Source: Squalus acanthias
Lineage: Eukaryota
NCBI GenBank assembly: GCA_030390025.1
Contig: CM059440.1
Location: 32,302,001 to 32,366,000 of the forward strand
Direction: 5' to 3'
DNA: 64,000 bases
Positions 7,638 through 56,070 of the stretch are shown here, in pieces. A program made the position numbers and the translations under genes. How positions within the stretch are numbered: the stretch's first letter is position 1; each line of letters begins with the position of its first letter. The notes under the pieces are model-generated. The model did no database searches. It worked only from the letters and a program-made list of their open reading frames with translations, and was not told the DNA's origin.

Positions 7638-7807
7638 TCAAGGCCTGAAGCTTTGTGGACGAATCTTCATTTCGACTTGTTTCAGTGAGTAACTTGAACC
7701 ATGCCAGCCGTACCATGTGATGCCATCAGAGTTTTGGGCGTGCTGCCCTTGACGATAATAAACTCCATTCAGATTGGAATCTGTGCAGCAGTTGTACCAG
7801 TAGCCAC
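7638..7807 (-). CDS. ANGPTL7: Angiopoietin-like 7, coding exon 5 (C-terminus of fibrinogen-like domain, stop TGA)
   Basis: Acceptor ctgcAG. 170 nt. Translates (G)GYWYNCCTDSNLNGVYYRQGQHAQNSDGITWYGWHGSSYSLKQVEMKIRPQSFRP*. Confidence 0.97.
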
Positions 7808-8303: not shown

Positions 8304-8502
8304 CTTTGCGGAATTGTACGCAGTCGTCCACACACTTGTCGTTGTCTTTGTCCTTTGTGCTGAAGGCAGTGTTGTTGTGGTACCTGAGTGAGTCCCGTCC
8401 AGCTGTCCCGTTGTAATTTCCAATTATTAATCTGTAGCTATTTAATTCATTGCTTATCGAAAAGTAGTTGTATTCTGCATAACAAGTGCGTCCTTCCCAG
8501 TC
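8304..8502 (-). CDS. ANGPTL7: Angiopoietin-like 7, coding exon 4
   Basis: ctacAG acceptor, GTAAGT donor. 199 nt. DWEGRTCYAEYNYFSISNELNSYRLIIGNYNGTAGRDSLRYHNNTAFSTKDKDNDKCVDDCVQFRK. Confidence 0.97.
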
Positions 8503-8740
8503 CTGTAGTTATATAGGCCAAGTCATTAAACAGTTTACTTACACCAATATAAATTGGTACTAGCATGCTGTAGAATGTCAATGAGTATATTAATTCACAT
8601 TTATAAATCCTTTTATGGTAGAAATTTAAATATTAAACTTCCTACTGTTTCCAATTCTGTCCATTGAATATTTCATCTGAAATAAAATTAATCAGTCATA
8701 ATTTTGGAAAAATATATAAATGAAAATTCTAATGAGTTAC

Positions 8741-8935
8741 CTCCATGTCTATCCTGAGTATACTTGGCTGCCTAGTTAATCGAAAAATGTGTTCGTTTCC
8801 CAACCAGAAGTCTCCACGGATGTTGCCAAACCCTCGCTTGTACTGTTTCCAGTCACGATTGAAAGAGGTTAGGCCAGCTTTGCGACGTTGTATAACAGTC
8901 CAGCCACCACCTTCAGTTTTCATGTCGCAGTACAC
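8741..8935 (-). CDS. ANGPTL7: Angiopoietin-like 7, coding exon 3
   Basis: cttAG acceptor, GTAACT donor. 195 nt. [65 protein letters not shown] (fibrinogen-related domain signature). Confidence 0.97.
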
Positions 8936-9289
8936 CTAAGGCAGTCCAAATGATTATTTAACTAGACATGGAGAATATTATTGAACACTGTGAAATATTT
9001 AGTTGGACTTTCATTCTATTATAATAAGAAATTGAGCAGATTCAAAGCCTCATTTACTAGTCTAAGTTTGGGTCAGTGTACTTGCAACCTCAAATCATTT
9101 TGATTTGAATTTTCTATTGGGTAAATCCTATTGAAAATACCATGTACTACAATTGTATCTTGGAAGTTGAGGAATAAAGTAGCTTGTGTTATTTAACCGT
9201 TTTCACTCTCCATTTTTCAATTAATTCTTTAGCTCCATCAGAACACATTTTCATCAAAAATTTAAATTAAAAACAACTGCAAATGCTAG

Positions 9290-9461
9290 AACATACATAC
9301 GAATTAGGAGCAGGAGTAGGCCACTCGGCCCCTCGAGGCTGCTCCGCCATTCAATAAGATCATGGCTGATCCGATTACTCCACATTCCCGCCTACCCCCG
9401 ATAACTTTTCACCCCCTTGCTTACCAAGAATCTATCTACCTCTGCCTTAAAAATATTCAAA
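9290..9461 (-). mobile_element. CR1-type LINE 3' tail fragment inserted in a palindromic repeat
   Basis: ggagcaggagtaggccactcggcccctcgaggctgctccgccattcaataagatcatggctgat is the reverse complement of the CR1 tail seen at 31990-32070. Confidence 0.75.
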
Positions 9462-9464
9462 ATA

Positions 9465-9635
9465 TAGAAACAAAAACACAAAATGCTGGAGAAACTCAGC
9501 AAATCTGTCAGCAATTGTAAAGAAAGATGACAAGGAAATGTTTCAAGTGTAACCCTAACCTCAAACATTAACTTGTCTGTTCTCTTTACAGATTCTGACT
9601 GACTGTATATTTCCAGCATTTTTTATTTTTTGTTC
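9465..9635. repeat. Palindromic Penelope-terminus-derived repeat (degenerate copy)
   Basis: aaaatgctggagaaactcagc...tttccagcatttt inverted arms. Same family as 14425-14621 and 45990-46132. Confidence 0.65.
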
Positions 9636-9652
9636 ATTAAAAATACATTCAT

Positions 9653-9996
9653 TTCATGGATTCCTAGTTATAAATCAATTAGAAAGGTTTAATAAGCACC
9701 ATGGTCATTCTTAACTCGCTTCAATGCTATCTTCCTGGTGTAGAGTACAGTAGCAATTTGGTCTGGTTTCACACAGTGGCAGAGAAAAGAATTAATGAAA
9801 GTTTCCTGCTTGGCAGTGAGTATCATACATTAACATAGATTTTGATCACTGATACAGGCTCTGTTCTAACTTGGAAAAGGACCTCACAAAGTGGAAAAAA
9901 ATATGAATTACTAAAGAACAGGCCACTCTTTTCGTTGTTGCTCATATGCAGCTGCAGTAATGGTTGAATTTAAAACTTGGGGTTTCTTCAGCAATA
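9653..9996. repeat. Inverted repeat arm A (pairs with 10421-10764)
   Basis: Colinear reverse-complement match, including perfect blocks 9861-9890/10536-10565 (30 nt) and 9935-9958/10464-10487 (24 nt). Confidence 0.92.
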
Positions 9997-10292
9997 GGAA
10001 GATATATTCCATACTCGGGTAAAATCCTAGGCCAAATTCACTGTTTGAAAAAATCACAGTAAAATGAAGAATGAGGTGATATTTTAGTATTCACTGAACA
10101 ATTCTCACAATGGAGTAAAAAATTCACAAATGATAAGTAACGAGTGTCCTGTGTATTGCAGTTATCACAACGACAGTGTTCAACAGATGGCTCTGTATGT
10201 GCAGTCCACCAGTTTGAAACTCCGCTGGAGTAAATCACGTCCGAAAGATAATATGAATAAAAATAAAGGAAGTTTATTTTAAAAAGCATCAC

Positions 10293-10393
10293 CTCTAGTT
10301 CTGGAGTTCCCAGGAAATCATCTGCAGGTAGCTTGTACACACCAGATATTCGATAATTCTTCTGGTACAGCGATGTACAGTCGTACGTAGCAT
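10293..10393 (-). CDS. ANGPTL7: Angiopoietin-like 7, coding exon 2
   Basis: tttgcAG acceptor, GTGATG donor. 101 nt. (D)ATYDCTSLYQKNYRISGVYKLPADDFLGTPELE. Phases fit exons 1 and 3. Confidence 0.97.
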
Positions 10394-10420
10394 CTGCAAA
10401 CAAAAGATTAAAGACTGCAT

Positions 10421-10764
10421 TACTGCTCCAGAATGCCCGAGTATTAAATCGAACCATTACCGCACTGCAGCTGCATATGAGCAACAATGAAAAGAGTGGC
10501 CTTTTTACTAATATCTTTAAAAAAAAAAATCAATTTTTGTGAGGTCCTTTTCCAAGTTAGAACAGTGATCAAAATCTATATCCATGCATGGTACTCACTC
10601 AAGCAGGAAACTTGCATTCATTCTCTTCTCATCCACTGTCTATGAAACCAGACTAAATGGCTACCATACTCCACACCAGTAAGAAAGCATTGAAGCGAGT
10701 TAAGAATTATCATGGTGGTTTTTATATCTTTCTAATTGATTTATTAGCTGTGGGAATCCATGAA
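10421..10764. repeat. Inverted repeat arm B (pairs with 9653-9996)
   Basis: See arm A. The arm ends about 27 nt from the exon 2 acceptor. Confidence 0.92.
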
Positions 10765-11359
10765 TCTTTGCAAATGCACCACATATACTAGTCACTTTGA
10801 AATATTCCGTTTAGACTGTTGCATCATATTGTTCCCATCTAAATTCTCTACCCAGTAAGTTAGCATTGTTAACCTGAAATTGCAGACTTGTGTTTTGTTT
10901 TGACCTTTCTGAATTAAGCTGCCCATTTATCCTGGTCTAAGCTTTGTTTTTACTTTTTCTTGTTTAACCCTCCTCCCCTTCCCCTTTCGTCAGAATGTAC
11001 AGGACTCGCCAAAAACATTTGTGGACCATCTTGAGAGTCCCAAAGCTTAAAAAGTATTGCACACTACTCTGTCTCTCATACCTCTTGATCCCTTTCTTGG
11101 AAAAATATCCATCTACAGTAGTTTGCTCTTGAATTTGTTGACACAAGCGGCCTTCACAGTCCCACCCGCTCCAGGCAATTTGTTCCATATATACAGACCC
11201 AGTTAAGCCAAAAGAAAGGTTGAACATCTGTTAATATCCCAGAAAGAAAAAAATGCAGCAAGGTAGGCTTTTAAATGTTTGAATAACCAAAATAATAACC
11301 TGACTTTGGTCCTAAAGGTATGTAATACTATTTATAACAAACTTTTTTTTTTACGATTA

Positions 11360-11675
11360 CTGCCTGTGCTGAGTTAACTGATTTGAACTGGGGCACCAAT
11401 TGGTGTGCTACAGTTAGCACCAGGACTCCTGGGCGAGGGAGGACAAACAGCAATTAAGATTCCAGCTTCTGATCACTATCCTGCTGGCAGAGCTTCCATG
11501 GGGGGATGCTGGTTGAGGACAGGATCAGGCTCAATTGTGATGCCTTCCATGGTCAACTAGGCTACCGATATTAATTGTCAGGGCTCTCGCATGAAGTATG
11601 GGTGCTTGGGCAAGGTACTGAAGGTTTACCACTGAAAGTGGAGCCATATCCTAATAAAGGACAGTGCCTTCAGCA
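11360..11675 (+). mobile_element. Old SINE-like repeat, family A copy
   Basis: ctgtgctgagttaactgattt...ctgatcactatcc...gaggacaggatcaggctc...gggcaaggtac shared with other copies. Confidence 0.55.
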
Positions 11676-14424: not shown

Positions 14425-14621
14425 TTAGCAAAATACTGCAGATGCTGAAATTCTGGAACAACAACAGAAAATGCTGGAAACACTCAGCAGGTCAGGCAGC
14501 ATCGTGGAGAGAGAAACCGAGTTAACGTTTCGTCATCGACCTGAAACGTTAACTCTGTTTTTCTCTCTCTACGATGTTGCCTGACCTGTTGAGTGTTTCC
14601 AGCATTTTCTGTCGTTGTTTC
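14425..14621. mobile_element. Palindromic Penelope-terminus-derived element with 14-bp target-site duplication
   Basis: Near-perfect ~75-bp inverted arms centred on gttaacgtttc-gtcatcgacct-gaaacgttaac. Flanked by the direct repeat aaatactaagagca at 14411-14424 and 14622-14635. Confidence 0.85.
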
Positions 14622-16560
14622 AAATACTAAGAGCACCTCACTCTGATTTCCAGACACTTTCTGACTGCTGTTGTGTTTAGGTAAAGTGCAAAGTGGGAGT
14701 CTCTCGTGCATTGTTTTCAGATTGTGACTGAGTAGCTAAGGTATGCCGTGTGGTCTGCTTCACCAGCAGGTGAGAATTTAAGACTGCTGATGTTTCTTGA
14801 CTAGGTGTCTGATGGAATCAGGTGAAACACAGACTCAGGGCTTTGAATGGAATGTGTGAGTGTTCTGTCCGTGGGCTCCAGCTACAGGATGCAAGTGTGA
14901 GCTGCAAGTAATCTGTTAAACCTGGAGCTATAGAGGGCAGGAGCTGGTAGGCACGGATTTGTACTTTGAGACCGGAGGTAGAGAGAGCACCTCTGCTACT
15001 AGATAGCTTTCAAATTCACAATAGTTTGTAGCTTCACAATAATCCGTCAAAGCTAAAAGCTTTAGAGTATATTCTGCTTTGGTACATCCCTAGTGAGTGA
15101 ACAGAAAAGAGAGATCCTGACCATTACCCGCAGTACAATGCTGGTTCAGAAATTACAATATTTATATTGTTAAACGCATTCTATAATCCCAGCATTATCT
15201 CTTTCCCCTCTCCCCCTTTCAAGAGTACCAAGGCTTGCAGTCTAATTTTAGATTGCAAATAAATTCAGTCACTACATTAAAATGTGATGGAAATGGCATA
15301 GTAAATTTTTTTTTAGTACAATTTCATATCAGGGGACTGTTTCTGCTGCAACAATGCAGTTCTACCTTCTAAAAGAAAGGGAACACTAACTAAACTGCCG
15401 GTATTTCCTTCTATCTTGTAGCATGACTATTGTAGTTGGTCAGAAAGATCTTGTAGTTTAGAAATAAAAATAAATGTGATTACTGCAACATTTAAGTACA
15501 TTATGTGGAGAGAATTTTTTGAGGAATTCTGATGTGTTGCAGTCTGTTCAGATTGGTGCAGGTGCTGAATCAGAATGTAGTTTGAACATAATTAATAGCG
15601 CTCAGAGGCAAAATCAACTTAAATCAACCTACTGTATCAGTTCTACAGTTACCTTGAGTAGTTCCACTTCATGTACTGGTAGAGTTAAATATATTGTGCT
15701 TTCATAAACAAAGTGTTTTAAGAAACTAGTAGATTTTGTTTTATACACTAACCTATGAAAGTTAATTTATTGTTGGTTCATTTAACAAATTATAAAAATC
15801 GGGGGGAAAAACATTAAACTCTGCTCCAGTTTAGTAGGCTCTTGTAGGAAAAATACATACTGTAGTTAAATGGAATCAGATAACGTACAGTAATTAAAAG
15901 TAAAAACTGGTTCGTAGCCTTATTAACAACAAACGGATTTTAGAGGCTTTGTCAAACTTAATTGGGGTGAGTGGGTTCAGAGGCACTTGCATTCTTTTAG
16001 AAAAGGGCGATCGTGATTTTCTGTTCCATGTTGATGCCTGATTTATTCTTTTTCAACTGTAGTCGACATAACTGAGAGCTTTCCAAATTATTTATGAGTT
16101 TGAACGGGATCTCGCTCAAGAAAATTGGGAATGCCCAGACCACATTATACAGCTGTGTTTTATTAAGTGGGAATGTGACTTTCATTTGTCAAATTTTGTT
16201 TGATAACGCTCCTATGAAACGCATTGGGACATTTTACTACGTTAAAGGCGCTATATAAATGCAAGTTGTTGTTCATATTTAATCAATGTGAGCTGCTATG
16301 AATTGCTTAATCATAATACTGAAATACTAATGTGAAGTTTTAACTTTCTGCTTAATTTTAACTACAAAGAAATAAAAGTAACTTATCAAGCAGAGTAGCT
16401 TTTAATAGTTCTGAAAACGTCAAATCACCTTTTAAAACTTAAATTTACAGGCTCATAATTGCCTGTGTTTATTCATACTATGCCTAACCTTATGAGCAAT
16501 AAATGCATTCAATAACGTCTCCATTCCCATCCCTTGCTTCCCAGAATAGTCTGCCCTTAC

Positions 16561-16942
16561 CTGCAGATGTCTGCGTAACTGTTTGGGCTGCCTGAAGCTG
16601 AATAATGTCTATCCGATTGTTCACTTCAGAGTATTTTCCTTCGGCTTCTGTAATGCGAGATTCAATCTGCCGATAGCCGTTTTCCACTTCCATCATCTGC
16701 ATGACAACGTTTATCCAGTCGGTCTCCTGTTTCCTACTGAGCTCAGTAAGAATGCTGGTCAGGTTGGCCACCTGGATCTTCAGCTCTTTCAGATCATCAC
16801 AGCAGGTGATGAGCTTCATAATGTTCACTCCTCCTGCAGCCCCCCTTCTCCGAGGTGCTTTCTGAACCCGGCTATAACCCGAAGGAAAATTGCAAAGCAG
16901 AAAAATGAACGACAAAAGCCAGAGGAAAATCTTGACTGGCAT
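16561..16942 (-). CDS. ANGPTL7: Angiopoietin-like 7, coding exon 1 (signal peptide + coiled coil)
   Basis: ATG at 16942. Hydrophobic leader MPVKIFLWLLSFIFLLC, then CCDDLKELKIQVANL...IDIIQLQAAQTVTQTSA. Donor G|GTAAGG at 16560. 382 nt. The five exons sum to 1047 nt in frame. Confidence 0.96.
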
Positions 16943-41975: not shown

Positions 41976-43797
41976 TTAAATTTGGGGTAAAGATGATATG
42001 TCCCATGAATCTATTTGTGGAGGTTATGGGAATCCTAAATTGTCAAATTGTGGCTGTATATTTAAGAAAAAAGAAATCCATTATCTTTATTGTTTTCTCT
42101 CGTTAGCCATCTGCATTCACATTGGCAATAGTGAACAGGATGAGGATGCCTAGTCTAGTGGGGTTTAGGAACACCAAGATTTTGAGGGCTATTCTGCAGT
42201 GAATTCCCCAATACAATCGCTATCCCATAGATATGTGGCAGAGACTTGAAGGTAGGCAAGGGAAAATGTCAGTGCATGTATTCCTACATGGTTGTTATGT
42301 TGTTGAGTCTTTTGAAATCTGCTTACCCTAGGTTATTTTGATTCTTGTATCTTACATCACACTAATGGGTGGGTCCCAAGGCCCTATGCCTCTGAGAGCG
42401 TGCATCCTTTTCTTGAGATCTTGGTCAGAATAATGAATAGCAAATCCTAGTAATGGCTAGAAGATACTGCACTACTTATGCCTCCATAACAATTCACATC
42501 ACTGGTAAAGTATCACATCGGACCTTGCTTTCAAGTTGAAGATATCAAGTCAGTTTGTAAAATAAATAATTTACAGATGAACAGTCTAACAGCAATAGTT
42601 ACATGTTTACTGTAGATTACTTACAGCATGCACTTTTATAGATAACTTGTATGAACATAGTCCTCTTTCTTAACCTCTTCTGACTAGTCTATGTATTTTT
42701 ATCTTGTGAAGCTTATAATCGGTTTGACGACATTCTGATAATTTAACTCTATTCAGTTTATTGATCGGGTCCAGCTGTTTAAATAACTTTTCACTTGTTG
42801 TAGCATGTTTGAATTTTTCATAGCTCATAATTGTATTCAGAATAATTGGCTGTTATGCATTAAACTGAGCAAATCACACCATCTGTATCTGTTCAAAGTT
42901 AACCTGGTTCCTTCCCTCAAACTTTGCAGCATATGTATCAAAAACTTTGATGATTTGTAAAAACTACTTATGTACAATGACTGGATGTAAAGAAATTGCT
43001 ACTAACTAAAACCAGATAAAAATCTTATCTTTTTGTCACAATGGCAAAGTGGTGCCCTTTGTGTTCTGAGTGTAGTTGCGTCAGCCTAGGTACAGGTTAC
43101 CATTGATGCTCTCAAGATCTGTTTTATTTTAATGGGCCTTTGCATAAAATTGTGACAATGGTATTTCAAATACAGTAAAATTCTGGCAATATTCTTAACA
43201 TTTCTTTCTAGACCCTGTGGAGAAACTGTTGTGAAACTTAATACATGTGGTTTTCTAAACTAGGCAAATAATATATTTATTTTAAGTGCTTTCTATATGT
43301 ATTCATAACTATATCTGAATATTTATGGGATATAAATATCTCACGAGCATTGATAGATCTTGGTGCAATATTAATGAGTCGTAATCGCGAAGTTGATTTT
43401 GACTCTGAGCCAATAAAGGTTGTGTTCTCACTTCTGTCTCTCATATTATGTAACATTCCTTCTGTATTTCTGTCTGCCTGCCTGATTTTCTTTTACCTAC
43501 CTTGGACCCTCATCCTTTCTCCCACTAATCTCTTAAATTCATGTGTCTGAATAGCAGCAAATGAAAGGCACTACAAATGAACTGGACGCTGTGTGACTAT
43601 TCTGCATCAAGTGTTAATGAAATTCTGGCTTCCATATTTGCTCACGAGTAACAATGATTGCACTTCAGAAGTAATTCTTTAGATGCGAAACACTTTGGGA
43701 CACCCTGAGGACATGATAAATACACTTTTTAGATTAGTGTACTTTCTCTGATGCTACTTGATTGGAATTGTACTAAATGTTCTCATTTCATTGACAG

Positions 43798-43873
43798 CAT
43801 AAACAACAAACTGCAGCAGCCTGAGGCAGCCGCTGGGGTCCTGGAATATGCCATGAAACACTATGGGGAGCTG
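43798..43873 (+). CDS. MTOR: Serine/threonine kinase mTOR internal exon (FAT domain; about human exon 29)
   Basis: ttgacAG acceptor, GTAGGT donor. 76 nt. (S)INNKLQQPEAAAGVLEYAMKHYGEL. Confidence 0.97.
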
Positions 43874-44220
43874 GTAGGTACTCTCAATACCTTGCTCTGA
43901 TAAGAATGTCAAAACTATTTAAGTTTATCCTTAAAAACAAAAATGTTTTCTTCCTGTGAGGAAGTGCCAGGTCTTCACTTGGCAACATGCCCACAGTGGT
44001 ATGATTGGAATCAGGGGCTCACTGTATGGGGAGTTGCAGGCGTAGGCTCTCCATGCTCATGTCTCCCATGTTCCAGCACTTCTGAGAGCACCTCTTGAGC
44101 AAGGGATTGCAGCCCTCTACAAGAAGTTAGTGAGCAACTACATTAGTAATGCACTGTTTGACCTGAGACCTCGTTTTGTAATGCAAACTCTTCAATGCAT
44201 AGAGCGCCCCTGTAAATAAT

Positions 44221-45989: not shown

Positions 45990-46132
45990 AAATAAAAACA
46001 GAAAATACTGGAAATACACCACAGACCTGTCGGCATCTGAAAACACTAGAAACCTTAATCTGTTTTTTTTTTCTCGTTTTAGATGCTGATAAACATGCTG
46101 TGTGTTTCCAGCATTTTTTGTTTATATTTCAG
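45990..46132. repeat. Palindromic Penelope-terminus-derived repeat (degenerate copy)
   Basis: aaacagaaaatactggaaatacac...gtgtgtttccagcattttttgttt inverted arms. Confidence 0.65.
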
Positions 46133-47539
46133 ATTTTTTTTTATCTATTCAGCATTACTTTCAGTGACATTAAAAAAAAAGTGACTCAATCCATCCTACC
46201 ATTTAAGAGTTCCAGCAAACAGGTCTGGTTCTAGAATGATCCAAGTAATGAACTTAACTCCTCATAGAACCATAGTCCAATATAATTGTACCAAGGGACA
46301 GGTTAAAATATGAAGAACAGTTGGTGAATGTTTCTGCAGCCTTCCCAGCGTGTTGCAGACACTCCAGAGTTACACCTGTGCAACTGGACCATTCCTCATC
46401 TGAATGCCCTTACCTATATCTGTCCCTAACTCTTCCTTTAACGTGGCTAGAGTCCAGTATTGTGTAACAGAATATTCATTTTTTTAAAAAAGGAAGTCAA
46501 TTAAAGGAGAATTTGCCCTGAGCGATTGTGTTGACATTTTTGCACTGTTGGAATGGTGCATTTTCTATGTGGCAGAAAAGTAATGTGTTATCTCCTGGTT
46601 ACTTAACTGGTTCCAATTGTATTCTGTGGAACCTGCCACTCCATATTGCAGTATATCATTACAGAATATGATGGGAGAGCCATCTGTTTCTTAGAGCATG
46701 GAAATGTCTTCAGGCCTCGGATATTTAAGTCAATTCTTACAAAAATAAATCCCCATTATAATTTTACAAAGTGCCATTCTTACAGAAGGATGGTAAAGCA
46801 AATTCAGTACCGGAAAAGTGACAGAATAAATCAGGAAACATGAAGTCTTTTGCAGGAAAATTTACAGTAACTAAATAAACAAGTTTTATTAACAGAGGTG
46901 TGTATTCTCCAGCAAATTAGGGTATCTGGAATTTAGAAAAATAATACTATGTGATATTTTTTTTACCGCTTTCCAAAAGGAGTTGGGAAAAGTTCCCATC
47001 ATCCGCCCTGTGGCCATTGGCTGCAGTCTAGTACTAGTTACAGAGCAGACAGGCTGCACAAAGATGGGCTGTGTCTGTTTTTTTATAAGGATCAGGTTTC
47101 TCATTTGAGGATATCTGTGTGCTGAGGTCATGTATAAGTAAGCACCCATGCGGTGTCAACAAATTACCACGCACTTAAAAATTTGAAGGCGCTGGAGTAC
47201 TTTGCTAGTAAATAATAAAGGTAGGAAAGTTAATTCATTCAATTTAGTTTGAGGTTTGCAGATTATATACATATAATGATTCTCTAGGTTCTATGATCCA
47301 TGCTTTGCCAGTAATAAGACCCTTCAACTGTCCGTAAGGGCTATTGGGCTTCACTCTTCGATACTTTTGTTGCTGTCGCGCAACCATGTCAAATGCATAG
47401 TTTTGTAAACCAACTTAGGAACTTTAGTGTAGGACCCGGCACAGTGAATGATGTATACTTCTTGTTACATAAGCCTTATGTTTTGTTTTGTTTTGTTCCC
47501 CTCTATTACCATGAAGAGTAGCATTCTCTGTGTTTTGCG

Positions 47540-50332: not shown

Positions 50333-50472
50333 GAGATCCAAGCAACATGGTATGAGAAACTTCACGAATGGGAAGATGCTTTGGTTGCATATGACAAGAA
50401 GATGGACATGAACAAGGATGATCCAGAGCTCGTCCTTGGACGAATGCGCTGCTTGGAGGCACTTGGCGAATG
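50333..50472 (+). CDS. MTOR: mTOR internal exon (FAT domain; about human exon 30)
   Basis: ttttatAG acceptor, GTGAGT donor. 140 nt. [46 protein letters not shown](W). In phase with the previous exon. Confidence 0.98.
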
Positions 50473-52989
50473 GTGAGTTTCAACATAAGAATTCTTCGGA
50501 ACAAGAAAAGCTCAGTAGATTCAAAACATTGGTCCCTTTTTGATTGATGCCTACTCCACCTATCTGTTTTCCTCATCGTGCCACTCAATCCAATGTCTCT
50601 TGAACCTAAATGCCTGCTTAAGTGCCCTTTCTTGCTAACTTGTTTCACAAAACTATTAACCTTTGTTTAACAAAAAGTTCCTCCTGGCTTTCCTTGTTAG
50701 TCCTAAGTTACTAATTTTCAACTTCTGTCACCTTGTAGTTGAGCCTTTTGTCACAGAGAATCCTTTTTCTAAATTAGTTTTGTCAATTCCTTTCATAGTT
50801 TTGAAAACATTGCATTGAAGTTTCCACTTTTTTCAAAAGAGAACAGGCCCAACTTCCTTACATTGCTTCTTAACTTCAGATTCCTGAGCCTAGAGTTTCC
50901 AATCGCCATCATTTTAGCATCTGATTAACCCATTTGAAATAAAAGGGAATATGGTGATTGGAAAATAAAGACCCTGATATGCTTGATCATCTTGGTTGCT
51001 CACTTCTATATTTACTAAAAGGGCAATAATAGCCTTTTGTTACAAATTCGGGTCTGCCACAGATCCCTTCTCTGGTTCAATGATATCACTCACTTTCATA
51101 AGCAGTCTGAGTGACTTTTTATGGGAGTCGACTCAGACTGATATATATCTACTTATATGGTAGCGCGGCCCGGAGGCATAACAATGGAACCTCCTTGTGA
51201 CCGGCAATGGATATTTGTGCGTAAATCTTCAATCTCTCCAAAGGTGGATCGAGTTAGCACGAGGTGAGATGAGGTTTGGTTCAAATCATTAAGCTGCTTT
51301 ATTCCACAGTAACGTGAACGTACAAAGCAATGCTTCTAAGCATATTCACTTTGTTCAATTGATGTACTCTATTTCTGCATCATAACAAGAAAAAGCAATA
51401 TTACCCGTACTCCCATGCTTCACTTAAACCAGCAAGTCTGCATCCTGATTTTTTGAGCCTGCCTTTCCTTGGCCCTCTTTGCCTCAACTGTCCCTTCTGT
51501 TGTGAAAGCTAGACGGCTATTTAGGTGTCTGACATTCTACTTTATTGCTGACTGTTCATAGACTGAAAAAAGATTAAAGCTGTCCAACACAATGTGTGTG
51601 AGGTGTTTATCAGTTACAGAGACAAGCCATTAAATTGCTTATTATTTACAGTCTGAGGCAACAACATCAAGGATAGCCCATGAGCATCTTAACTACATTT
51701 AAAGTAACTCTTTTTCGAAATCCGTTGTGGAAAAATAGTCCAAAAAAATCCTGAAATATGACACTTTCCTATGGTTAGTTTGGCCAGACAATGTAGCTGT
51801 TAAGATACTAACACACACTGAAATTCAATATGTGTAAAAGGAAAGACACTAGCCAGCTTTGAGATTGAACACTCTGCTATTTGATTCAGCATAAGACTGA
51901 CTATGTTTACAGTACTCGGGCAACTGAATCGAGAGCAATGTCTATGTCGAGAACTGCAGAGTACTCTGTGTATTATTCGTCTACCCTCCCAGATAAAGGG
52001 TATTATTGACTGAAGCCCGAAAATAGAAACGCAGGCAGATGTAGCTTTTGATTATTGTTGTGGGGGGCTGTGAAGGGAGAAGAGGAACAAATGGACTTTG
52101 GATCCTGCAATTCATAGGCAGCATGAGGAAACACTATAGCTATTTATGTTGTATTAATATTTAATAAAACTGTTCTGGGGCAGCACAGTGATGCAGTGTT
52201 TGTATTTCCAGCCTCCTGTGCTATAAGGTTGTCGGATGCTCCTGTGCACTAAGATTGTCCTCGCAATGAGTTTCTTTCTTAGATGTGCCATTGTGAAGGA
52301 AGTGTTTCTCCCGGACAGGCAAAGCTGCTCTGGCGTGCTTTTGTACAGTTCCTAGTGGCCAGTTATGGAGCAGCATAGGCAGAGGCTTGGAACCAGGTCA
52401 CCTGCTGACCTTTCAGCCAGGGACAATGCATGGTGCAGGGAGATTAGAGAGCAGGAGCAAGGTGGGGGAAGCTTTCAATTTTTATATATGTAAAGTAGGC
52501 CTCATTTATTGTATGAGAAATCGACAAGTAATCAAAATGAGCTTAATGTGCATGAGTACAAACTATATTGGGTAATGCTGTAAAAATGAGTGAGATTTTG
52601 TACGTTCAACTTCAATTCATGTGACCACATTAGACTCCAAACCTATGGGTAAGCAAAGATCTTGGACATTGACGGGTACTCTACAAATTATTCCATGTTT
52701 TTTTGGCACTGTTCTCTTGTCTTGAAGTAATAATGTTTAAGTATACAGTATATTCCATAGGTTTTTGGCTTCTTATAAGAGTGAAACTGCTTTAAATTTA
52801 ATTGTCATTGTGCTGCTTCTGGGTCTGAGTTTTTATGGGAAACTGCCAAAGCCCTTCCTATCATACAGACCCTCCATCTGTTTCCATACATGTAATGAGT
52901 TGCCTCTCTCAACTAGGCCACAAGTGCCATCACTTGACCCAGTAGAAAAATGATTGGTTTTAACTTGCCCACATTTATCTCAAGTAACC

Positions 52990-53430
52990 ACAACAACAAT
53001 AACATGTATTTATATAGCGCCTTCAATGTAGTAAAATGTCCCAAGGTGCTTCACAGGAACATGATCAAACAAAATTTGACACCGAGCCATATGAGATATT
53101 AGGGCAGCTTGGTCAAAGAGGTTGGATTTAAGGTGCATCTTAAAGGAGGATAGAGAGGCAGAGTGGTTTAGGGAGGGAATACCAGAGCCTTAGGGCCTTT
53201 GCAGCTGAAGGCATGGCCGCCAATGGTGGTGCAATTAAAATCGGGGATGCTCACAAGGGCAGTACTGGAGTAACGCAGATATCTCGGAGGGTGTAGGGCT
53301 GGAGGAGATTAGAGATAGGGAGGGGTGAGGCCATGGAGGGATTTGAAAACAAGGATGAGAATTTTAAAATTGAGGCGTTGCTTAACCGGGAGCCAATGTA
53401 GGTCTGTGAGCACAGGGGAGATGGGTGAAT
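52990..53430 (-). mobile_element. L2 LINE 3' end
   Basis: (caa)n then tatttatatagcgcc...cccaaggtgcttcac. Complement of 55477-55750. Confidence 0.85.
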
Positions 53431-55355: not shown

Positions 55356-56070
55356 CACCAGTATAATACCGGGGATAAAAGGGTTAAATTATGAAGACAG
55401 GTTGCATAGACAAGGCTTGTATCCCTTGAATATAGAAGATTAAGGGGTGATCTAATTGAGGTGTTTAAGATGATTCTGGCCTCTTGCACATCCACGATTT
55501 TAATCGCTCCACCATTGGCGATCGTGCCTTCAGCTGCCAAGGCCCTAAGCTCTGGAATTCCCTCCCTAAACCTCTCCGCCTCTCCACCTCCCTTTCCTCC
55601 TTTAAGACGCTCCTTAAAACCTACCTCTTTGACCATCTGCCCATATATATCCTTATGTGATTCGGTGTCAAATTTTGTTTGATTACGCTCGTGTTAAGTG
55701 CCTTGGATGTTTTATTACGTTAATGGCGCTATATAAATACATGATGTTGTAGATATAAGTAGTTTCCTCTGATGGGAGAGTCCAGAACAAACGGGCATAA
55801 TCTTAAAATTAGAGCTAGTCCATTCAGCGATGATGTCAGAAAGCACTTCTTCACACAAAGGGTAGTGAAAATCTGGACCTCCCTCCCCAAAAAGCTGTTG
55901 AGGCTAGGTCAATTGAAAATTTCAAAACTGAGATTGATAATTTTTTGTTGGGCAAGAGTATTGAAGGTTACGGAACCAAGACGGGTAGATGGAGTTAAGA
56001 TGGAGATCAGCTGTGATCTAATTGAATGGCAGAACCGGCTCGAAGGGTTGAATGGTCCTGTTCCTATGAT
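55356..56070 (+). mobile_element. CR1 3' end split by a nested L2 3' fragment (55477-55750)
   Basis: RRLRGDLIEVFKMI, then an L2 tail, then GESRTNGHNLKI...FFTQRVVKIW and the CR1 tail. Confidence 0.8.

What the first reader, a model, noticed from the sequence alone, without database searches (positions are those of the whole stretch)
9653..10764. ~340-bp inverted repeat brackets ANGPTL7 exon 2: candidate RNA-structure splicing switch acting on two opposite-strand transcripts
Seen: 9653-9996 and 10421-10764 are colinear reverse complements (roughly 80% by eye, with perfect 30-, 24- and 22-nt blocks). They enclose a ~424-nt loop containing the whole 101-nt exon 2. The inner end of arm B lies about 27 nt from the acceptor, next to the likely branch point. 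I see no third copy in the window and do not recognise it as a TE, so it may be a local inverted duplication. Known: inverted repeats flanking an exon can promote exon skipping, back-splicing to circRNA and ADAR editing. Inference: the stem could form in both the ANGPTL7 pre-mRNA and the antisense MTOR pre-mRNA.
Basis: partly seen in the sequence, partly recalled or inferred. Interest (0 to 1): 0.75.

Follow-up and report, generated by a model that had tools for sequence, protein, structure and literature searches.

The report
Old inverted duplication around shark exon
A 344-base piece of intron DNA is present twice, in mirror image, on either side of exon 2 of a shark's ANGPTL7 gene; it is likely an old local duplication that is predicted to fold into a long RNA stem and may cause some wasteful exon skipping, but overall it changes as fast as ordinary intron DNA, so it is more likely a tolerated accident than a splicing switch.

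Summary
The inverted pair is real: 9653-9996 / 10421-10764, 77% identical with gaps (E 5e-74). It surrounds the 101-nt exon 2 of a shark ANGPTL7 nested antisense in MTOR. In contigs of two relatives the arms sit at single-contig depth, while neighbouring repeats reach 10^3 to 10^6, so this is probably a local duplication, not two transposon copies. It predates both relatives.

Against a switch: arm B diverges like non-arm intron (25/344 vs 49/634). One relative lacks about 20 nt of arm A, and another has replaced the inner 66 nt, beside the proposed branch point. Within the window, G·U-compatible mismatches favour neither strand (8 vs 10). The splice sites lie in the loop. Skipping frameshifts the gene, and 101 nt is short for a circRNA.

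Two post-hoc hints point the other way: the longest helices are spared (1/88 vs 19/192), and transitions are G·U-compatible on the MTOR strand (12 vs 1). Compensatory change could not be seen. No usable RNA data were found.

Verdict: a natural, non-transposon analogue of the TBXT loop-out pair, probably near-neutral. The scan had not noted this element before.

The parts
9653..9996 (.). Arm A (ANGPTL7 intron 2), 344 nt, 36.6% GC, non-coding
   Evidence: single-contig depth in organisms C and G; about 20 nt missing in C; 9931-10019 unaligned in G
10421..10764 (.). Arm B (3' end of ANGPTL7 intron 1), 344 nt, inverted copy of arm A
   Evidence: 25 listed substitutions and 5 listed indels in organism G
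9997..10420 (.). 424-nt loop holding exon 2, both splice sites and the pyrimidine tract
10293..10393 (-). ANGPTL7 exon 2, 101 nt, aa 128-161; acceptor TTTTGTTTGCAG, donor GAG|GTGATG (no G at +5); skipping frameshifts
   Evidence: three differences in G, two silent and one D to E
10418..10424 (-). Candidate branch-point motif (A at -27, position 10420), straddling the inner end of arm B
   Evidence: motif scan (recalled consensus, untested); folding: the A is 0.89 unpaired, the four bases before it pair with arm A
16561..16942 (-). ANGPTL7 exon 1, coding part (382 nt)
8741..8935 (-). ANGPTL7 exon 3 (195 nt), fibrinogen domain
8304..8502 (-). ANGPTL7 exon 4 (199 nt)
7638..7807 (-). ANGPTL7 exon 5, coding part (170 nt)
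9467..9635 (.). Palindromic multicopy element (MITE-like), ending 17 nt from the outer end of arm A; covered by the orthologous contigs of C and G and, in part, of D
9293..9463 (.). Very high-copy repeat fragment (recalled as a shark LINE 3' tail) present only in the window's lineage; served as positive control for multicopy detection
   Evidence: depth about 4e6; skipped in contigs of C, D and G
50333..50473 (+). MTOR exon (human aa 1444-1490); host gene on the + strand

Best explanation
The two arms are likely an old, single-locus inverted duplication of about 340 nt of ANGPTL7 intron DNA that is predicted to fold into a long stem in both the ANGPTL7 and the MTOR pre-mRNA, where it would probably be edited by ADAR and would cause at most a minor, unproductive skipping of exon 2, tolerated rather than selected. 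Shown: the pair, its geometry, single-contig depth in two relatives, presence in those relatives, and background-level divergence of arm B. Inferred: origin by a template-switch-type copy event, with the parent arm undetermined (arm B is slightly favoured because it abuts the acceptor region). Also inferred: arm A is transcribed last, 296 nt after the exon 2 donor, so exon definition can start before the stem closes. Predicted: any exon 1-3 product stops after 134 aa, 371 nt upstream of the last junction, and would be an NMD target.
For: Arms lie at single-contig baseline in C (5.9) and G (about 9-10) at 80% likeness, against about 4e6 for the LINE-like tail and 1e3 for the MITE-like element. 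Arm B differs from G at 25/344 sites (7.3%) and non-arm intron pieces at 49/634 (7.7%), Fisher p = 0.90. The piece holding the MITE and most of arm A differs at 38/465 (8.2%). G's differences are not depleted at paired sites: 20/280 vs 5/64, p = 0.79. About 20 nt of arm A are missing in C by depth arithmetic, 9931-10019 is replaced by 98 other letters in G, and G has 6 extra nt in inner arm B. Within the window, mismatches are 8 G·U-compatible on +, 10 on -, and 25 transversions, with 9 indels. A transposon pair in the same window looks alike (12/11/19). Perfect blocks match chance. 38 of 43 arm mismatches carry the same arm-B base in G, so most decay is older than that split. Exon 2, its donor, acceptor and pyrimidine tract have zero predicted pairing to arm A. 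None of the 44 ANGPTL7 proteins compared has a deletion matching exon 2, aa 128-161; this is weak, because a frameshifted form would rarely be annotated.
Against: Post-hoc signals in G's arm B: helices of 17 bp or more carry 1 difference in 88 sites against 19 in 192 elsewhere (p = 0.006 at that cut-off, 0.24-0.36 at cut-offs 10-14, permutation p = 0.038). Transitions at paired sites are 12 G·U-compatible on + against 1 on - (p = 0.004). Differences cluster, 17 of 25 in 112 nt (p = 0.005). Arm B is more conserved than the adjacent 10758-11187 (7.3% vs 12.3%, p = 0.02) if the list is complete. The stem is very strong (-395 kcal/mol) and closer to the exon than the TBXT AluY (>500 bp), so skipping could be large. 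Stable conserved pairings that loop out exons are depleted in human (PMC8052449), so long persistence is itself somewhat surprising. G's arm A alleles were not shown (40 of 240 rows), so compensation is untested.
Confidence: 0.62

Rival explanations
1. Selected loop-out switch on the ANGPTL7 strand: the stem promotes exon 2 skipping, partly by covering the bases before the branch A, and sends the mRNA to NMD to tune ANGPTL7 level.
For: Geometry and stability. The donor lacks G at +5. The four bases before the candidate branch A pair with arm A. An engineered non-transposon 297-bp inverted copy causes Tbxt exon 6 skipping (PMC10901737). Deleting an Alu reduced skipping in 7 of 8 reporters, by about 1 to more than 40 PSI points (PMC13019944). 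Long helices are spared in G.
Against: The inner helix beside the branch point is not kept in G. Arm B diverges at background rate. No G·U bias on the minus strand within the window (10 vs 8), and the bias in G points to the other strand. The branch motif is about as paired without arm A (0.25 vs 0.29 unpaired).
Confidence: 0.15
2. Partial constraint for another reason: a few long helices are kept as a dsRNA in the MTOR intron (+ strand), or parts of the duplicated segment act as a cis-element.
For: 12 vs 1 G·U-compatible transitions on + (p = 0.004). Against the rest of the run's spectrum it is 13:2 vs 45:47, p = 0.01. 1/88 vs 19/192 differences in long helices. Outside the variable tract, 8/232 vs 49/634 background, p = 0.03.
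Against: All are post-hoc, among about ten statistics looked at, from one contig of one relative and a truncated table. 7 of the 20 changes at paired sites are transversion mismatches, which pairing selection should remove as readily as A·C. The window's own arms show no + bias. Mutational strand asymmetry in a transcribed gene could mimic it (established knowledge, recalled).
Confidence: 0.13
3. Two independent insertions of an old dispersed transposon in opposite orientation.
For: Transposon-derived inverted pairs exist in the window (52996-53262 / 55476-55750, third copy at 16187). The arms have the same length and sharp borders.
Against: No extra contigs over the arms in C or G at 80% likeness, although the arms match each other at 87% ungapped and the adjacent MITE-like element was detected. 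No third copy in 64 kb. No long ORF. No target-site duplication seen at the borders.
Confidence: 0.05
4. DNA-level concerted evolution: gene conversion between the arms keeps them similar.
For: 20 of G's 25 arm-B differences fall at sites paired in the window and only 3 restore pairing, as conversion in the window's lineage could give.
Against: The ratio fits a short branch to the window's species: 9 of 99 differences to G are shared by C, and 3/23 against that share gives p = 0.46. That share counts only changes since the split from C. The arms still differ by 13% plus 9 indels, and the variable tract is the least similar part between arms.
Confidence: 0.03
5. The pair drives back-splicing of exon 2 into a 101-nt circRNA.
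For: Short intronic inverted repeats suffice for circularisation (PMC4201285).
Against: In the same paper a 51-nt exon gave no circle, and ZKSCAN1 exons of 400 nt or less circularised poorly or not at all. The smallest that worked were 336-360 nt.
Confidence: 0.02

Closest known systems
TBXT exon 6 loop-out by the AluSx1-AluY pair, and the engineered Tbxt-insRCS/insRCS2 alleles (Xia et al. 2024, PMC10901737; passages read)
   Same: About 300-nt inverted pair in the two introns flanking one exon, with the exon in the loop. The insRCS alleles, like this pair, are an inverted copy of the gene's own intron sequence.
   Different: Here the pair is natural, old and decayed (77% with gaps), much nearer the exon (27 and 296 nt), and skipping would frameshift. 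No skipping isoform or arm dependence is shown.
Exon-straddling inverted repeats of primate transcriptomes (Lee et al. 2026, PMC13019944; abstract and Results read)
   Same: Fits their minor class of generally unique complementary elements (4.69% of inverted alignments).
   Different: Their association with skipping was shown for Alu pairs in primates and was lost for mouse B elements. Nothing was tested in sharks.
PCCRs, pairs of conserved complementary regions (Kalmykova et al. 2021, PMC8052449; passages read); BRD2/BRD3 loop-outs (PMC10789245; search listing and start of abstract only)
   Same: Intronic complementary pair near splice sites that loops out an exon.
   Different: PCCRs lie in conserved intronic regions and are supported by compensatory change. 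Here arm B evolves at the background rate, and the looped-out exon is an essential coding exon, not a poison exon.
circRNA-promoting flanking repeats (Liang and Wilusz 2014, PMC4201285; passages and one Results section read)
   Same: Inverted repeats bracket both splice sites of an exon.
   Different: The exon is 101 nt, well below the lengths that circularised.

Membership tests
TBXT-type loop-out exon-skipping pair | Inverted repeats in the two introns flanking one exon | tested here: met
TBXT-type loop-out exon-skipping pair | Predicted stable stem with the exon in the loop | tested here: met
   arm B 0.79 paired to arm A, exon 0.00; -395 kcal/mol
TBXT-type loop-out exon-skipping pair | Exon-skipped transcript exists | tested here: inconclusive
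   the one guessed-RNA run gave no listed spliced ANGPTL7 contig in the stretch; joints table truncated
TBXT-type loop-out exon-skipping pair | Skipping depends on both arms | not testable with these tools
   needs minigene or deletion
Inverted pair of dispersed transposon copies (Alu-like) | Arms belong to a multicopy family | tested here: not met
   single-contig depth in C and G at 80% likeness; no third copy. A family decayed below 80% would be missed.
PCCR (conserved complementary regions) | Arms more conserved than surrounding intron | tested here: not met
   25/344 vs 49/634, p = 0.90 (one relative; 12.3% in the adjacent flank if the list is complete; block-level hints)
PCCR (conserved complementary regions) | Compensatory substitutions on independent branches | tested here: inconclusive
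   one search showed 40 of 240 difference rows, none for arm A of any relative
ADAR substrate | Long intramolecular dsRNA | tested here: met
   prediction only
ADAR substrate | A>G clusters in RNA against matched DNA | tested here: inconclusive
   the X14 contig overlaps only 45 nt of arm B; no raw reads and no matched DNA
circRNA-flanking complementary pair | Back-splice junction | tested here: inconclusive
   none listed, RNA cover inadequate; exon length unfavourable
Known structured RNA family (Rfam) | Match at gathering score | tested here: not met
   0 in the window; one chance-level hit (E 0.3, 29 vs 60 bits)

The most novel reading that the evidence does not exclude
A natural, non-transposon inverted duplication, kept across several shark lineages, whose longest helices are under selection as one symmetric element. 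It forms dsRNA in the MTOR intron and loops ANGPTL7 exon 2 out to NMD, tuning the nested gene. It would be the natural counterpart of the engineered Tbxt-insRCS allele.
Probability: 0.12. Interest if true: 0.6.

Novelty: new member of a known kind. Interest (0 to 1): 0.27.

Why it matters
If near-neutral, it shows that an essential, frameshifting 101-nt exon can sit in the loop of a predicted -395 kcal/mol stem, 27 nt from its acceptor, across several shark lineages. That is a useful natural negative control for loop-out models built on primate Alus. If skipping is real and regulated, it would be a non-transposon, non-mammalian case of loop-out control in a nested gene pair, and a one-amplicon RT-PCR would test it. 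I did not find it described: searches for ANGPTL7+shark+exon (0 papers), ANGPTL7+exon skipping (3, unrelated by title and abstract start), ANGPTL7+MTOR+intron+nested (2) and shark+A-to-I+inverted repeats+ADAR (4, none on this). The library lacks most subscription journals.

Tried and rejected
No whole genome is held, so genome-wide copy number could not be run directly; contigs of relatives stood in for it.

Sequencing-run search: no RNA holder listed on record. Run X14 (organism F, guessed RNA) gave one unspliced 373-nt contig, 10093-10465, with 3 differences, and no cover of exon 3. It says nothing on splicing or editing. Run X10 (organism D) has a hole over both arms and exon 2, which proves nothing. 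I laid 4 of the 21 listed runs, none from the window's own species.

I considered that G's 98 unaligned letters were laid on arm B instead. Depth at 10454, 10455, 10493 and 10495 equals one contig, so I rejected this.

An 11-bp helix between 10765-10777 and the exon 2 acceptor was seen by eye. It relies on T10769, which differs in C and G, so I rejected it as unconserved.

Other blanks: a metagenome scan with a 30-nt arm block gave 0 matches. Rfam gave nothing. The protein atlas was uninformative for exon 1. Tandem Repeats Finder found nothing in the arms. Six-frame translation of the arms shows frequent stops. Shark and ray X2 protein isoforms differ at the N-terminus, not at exon 2. Look-ups of earlier scan notes by sequence and by relatives found no look-alike of the element.

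Absolute dating was not attempted: the 7e-10 per generation rate (PMC10587355, passages) only supports a slow shark clock.

In one search the exon 1 end was taken 6 nt short; one search corrects it (348 aa; skip product 134 aa).

Full report
OBSERVATION. Self-blastn finds 9653-9996 and 10421-10764 as an inverted pair, 76.6% over 363 columns, E 5e-74, the best of 30 non-self hits in 64 kb, and neither arm has a third copy in the window. A global alignment gives 280 matches in 323 aligned pairs and nine gaps. The perfect 30-, 24- and 22-nt blocks exist, but shuffling the same mismatches gives runs as long in 39% of trials, so they are not a sign of selection.

GENE CONTEXT. Five minus-strand exons (382, 101, 195, 199 and 170 coding nt) give a 348-aa protein. 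Its exon 1 hits proteins named angiopoietin-related protein 7, and the closest is Pristiophorus japonicus at 97.1%. The window is therefore a shark, probably squalomorph (inference). An mTOR exon for human aa 1444-1490 lies at 50333-50473 on +. An ORF at 43733-43897 is recalled as the preceding mTOR exon and was not tested. ANGPTL7 nested in an MTOR intron is known in human (PMC4394429, one passage). Exon 2 (10293-10393) lies in the 424-nt loop, 27 nt from arm B and 296 nt from arm A. Skipping it shifts the frame and stops at 134 aa, 371 nt before the last junction, a likely NMD target (established rule).

COPY NUMBER AND ORIGIN. No genome is held, so I laid contigs of 4 of 21 listed runs on 8700-11400 at 80% likeness. 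In organisms C and G the arms sit at the depth of one contig (5.9; about 9-10), apart from a poly-A stretch. The LINE-like tail at 9293-9463 reaches about 4e6 and the MITE-like element about 1e3. The tool warns that depth is not copy number. Still, the listed arm-B positions show one covering contig (10509-10511, beside the poly-A, excepted), and the contrast is several orders of magnitude. Both arms are present in C and G. Arm-to-arm distance is 0.147 (JC) against 0.082 for window-to-G intron, and 38 of 43 arm mismatches have the same arm-B base in G, so the event predates these splits. The borders show no target-site duplication, only a 5-nt TTCAT repeat at arm A's outer edge. A template-switch copy is my inference. 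A palindromic element ends 17 nt from arm A, which is suggestive only.

CONSERVATION: THE CASE AGAINST SELECTION. Its order suggests G's list is complete from 10250 to 10757, which is an assumption. On it, arm B differs at 25/344 sites (7.3%). Three non-arm intron pieces differ at 49/634 (7.7%, p = 0.90), and the piece with the MITE and most of arm A at 38/465. Differences are not depleted at paired sites (20/280 vs 5/64). C lacks about 20 nt of arm A by depth arithmetic. In G, 9931-10019 (the inner 66 nt of arm A plus 23 loop nt) is replaced by 98 letters that do not align, and inner arm B has 6 extra nt.

CONSERVATION: THE HINTS FOR IT. Helices of 17 bp or more carry 1 of G's differences in 88 sites against 19 in 192 (p = 0.006; not significant at cut-offs 10-14; permutation p = 0.038). 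Transitions at paired sites are G·U-compatible on the + (MTOR) strand 12 times against once on - (p = 0.004). Seventeen of 25 differences fall in 112 nt. The flank next to arm B, 10758-11187, differs at 12.3% under the same assumption (p = 0.02). These tests are post-hoc, rest on one contig, point to the host strand rather than ANGPTL7, and sit badly with 7 tolerated transversions. They cannot be dismissed, because G's arm A alleles were hidden and compensation is untested. The 20:3 excess of breaking over restoring changes fits a short branch to the window's species (p = 0.46).

STRUCTURE. The 1.2-kb minus-strand RNA folds into the long stem (-505 kcal/mol). Arm-to-arm energies are -395.3 (+) and -395.5 (-), so acting on two transcripts is a consequence of symmetry. 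Exon 2, both splice sites and the pyrimidine tract have no predicted pairing to arm A. The candidate branch A at 10420 is mostly unpaired while the four bases before it pair, and the motif is about as paired when arm A is removed. The donor GAG|GTGATG lacks G at +5.

RNA EVIDENCE. None usable; see Tried and rejected.

MECHANISM. Most likely (0.62) an old accidental duplication whose stem probably forms and is probably edited, with at most minor unproductive skipping. Arm A is made last, which would give exon definition a head start (inference). A selected ANGPTL7 loop-out switch gets 0.15, partial constraint on the MTOR strand or a cis-element 0.13, a transposon pair 0.05, gene conversion 0.03 and circRNA 0.02.

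COMPARISON. It works like, if anything, the TBXT AluSx1-AluY pair and especially the engineered Tbxt-insRCS allele, where a 297-bp inverted copy of intron sequence caused exon skipping (PMC10901737, passages). Alu deletion reduced skipping in 7 of 8 reporters with effects from about 1 to over 40 points, and unique complementary elements are 4.69% of human exon-straddling inverted alignments (PMC13019944, Results read). So some skipping is plausible, but its size is unpredictable. It fails the overall conservation test for a PCCR (PMC8052449, passages) and the multicopy test for an Alu-like pair. Exons of 400 nt or less from ZKSCAN1 circularised poorly (PMC4201285). A preprint links loop-out skipping mainly to weak acceptors with strong donors (10.1101/2025.03.07.642063, passages), which by eye is the reverse of this exon; splice-site strength was not scored here.

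VERDICT. A real and tidy feature, a new member of a known kind, probably near-neutral, with an open minority case for function. Interest 0.27.

Noticed in passing
window 9293-9463: A 171-nt very high-copy repeat fragment (recalled as a LINE tail) is absent from the contigs of organisms C, D and G: an insertion specific to the window's lineage, usable as a phylogenetic marker.
   Followed up: partly
window 9467-9635, 14454-14622, 46082-46137: Family of about 165-nt palindromic MITE-like elements; the copy at 14454 in ANGPTL7 intron 1 is 87% self-complementary and would form a hairpin on both strands.
   Followed up: no
window 52996-53262 and 55476-55750: Second long inverted pair (80%, 2.2 kb apart, partial third copy at 16187-16278), transposon-derived, inside MTOR. 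Predicted duplex about -360 kcal/mol; no mTOR exon noticed between the arms (short-motif look only).
   Followed up: partly
window 10571-10682 (arm B) in organism G: 17 of 25 substitutions and 2 deletions cluster in 112 nt; across arm B, A>G plus C>T outnumber T>C plus G>A by 13 to 2, and four of the A>G changes give CpG in G. Unexplained.
   Followed up: partly
window 10758-11187 in organism G: Apparent 12% divergence, above the other intron pieces, and a 999-letter insertion at 11187-11194.
   Followed up: no
proteins P0025, P0032: Heterodontus and Mobula ANGPTL7 isoform X2 models replace the signal-peptide N-terminus (about 20 aa), which suggests an alternative upstream first exon in elasmobranchs.
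   Followed up: no
proteins P0008, P0016: Coelacanth and gecko ANGPTL7 X2 models lack exon 3 in frame (65 aa): the annotated skipped exon in other vertebrates is exon 3, not exon 2.
   Followed up: no
window 10287-10295: The exon 2 donor is predicted to be locked in a local helix (0.02 unpaired) with or without arm A.
   Followed up: no
window 1-43700: The MTOR intron that hosts ANGPTL7 appears to exceed 36 kb; no upstream mTOR exon was recognised in the window.
   Followed up: partly
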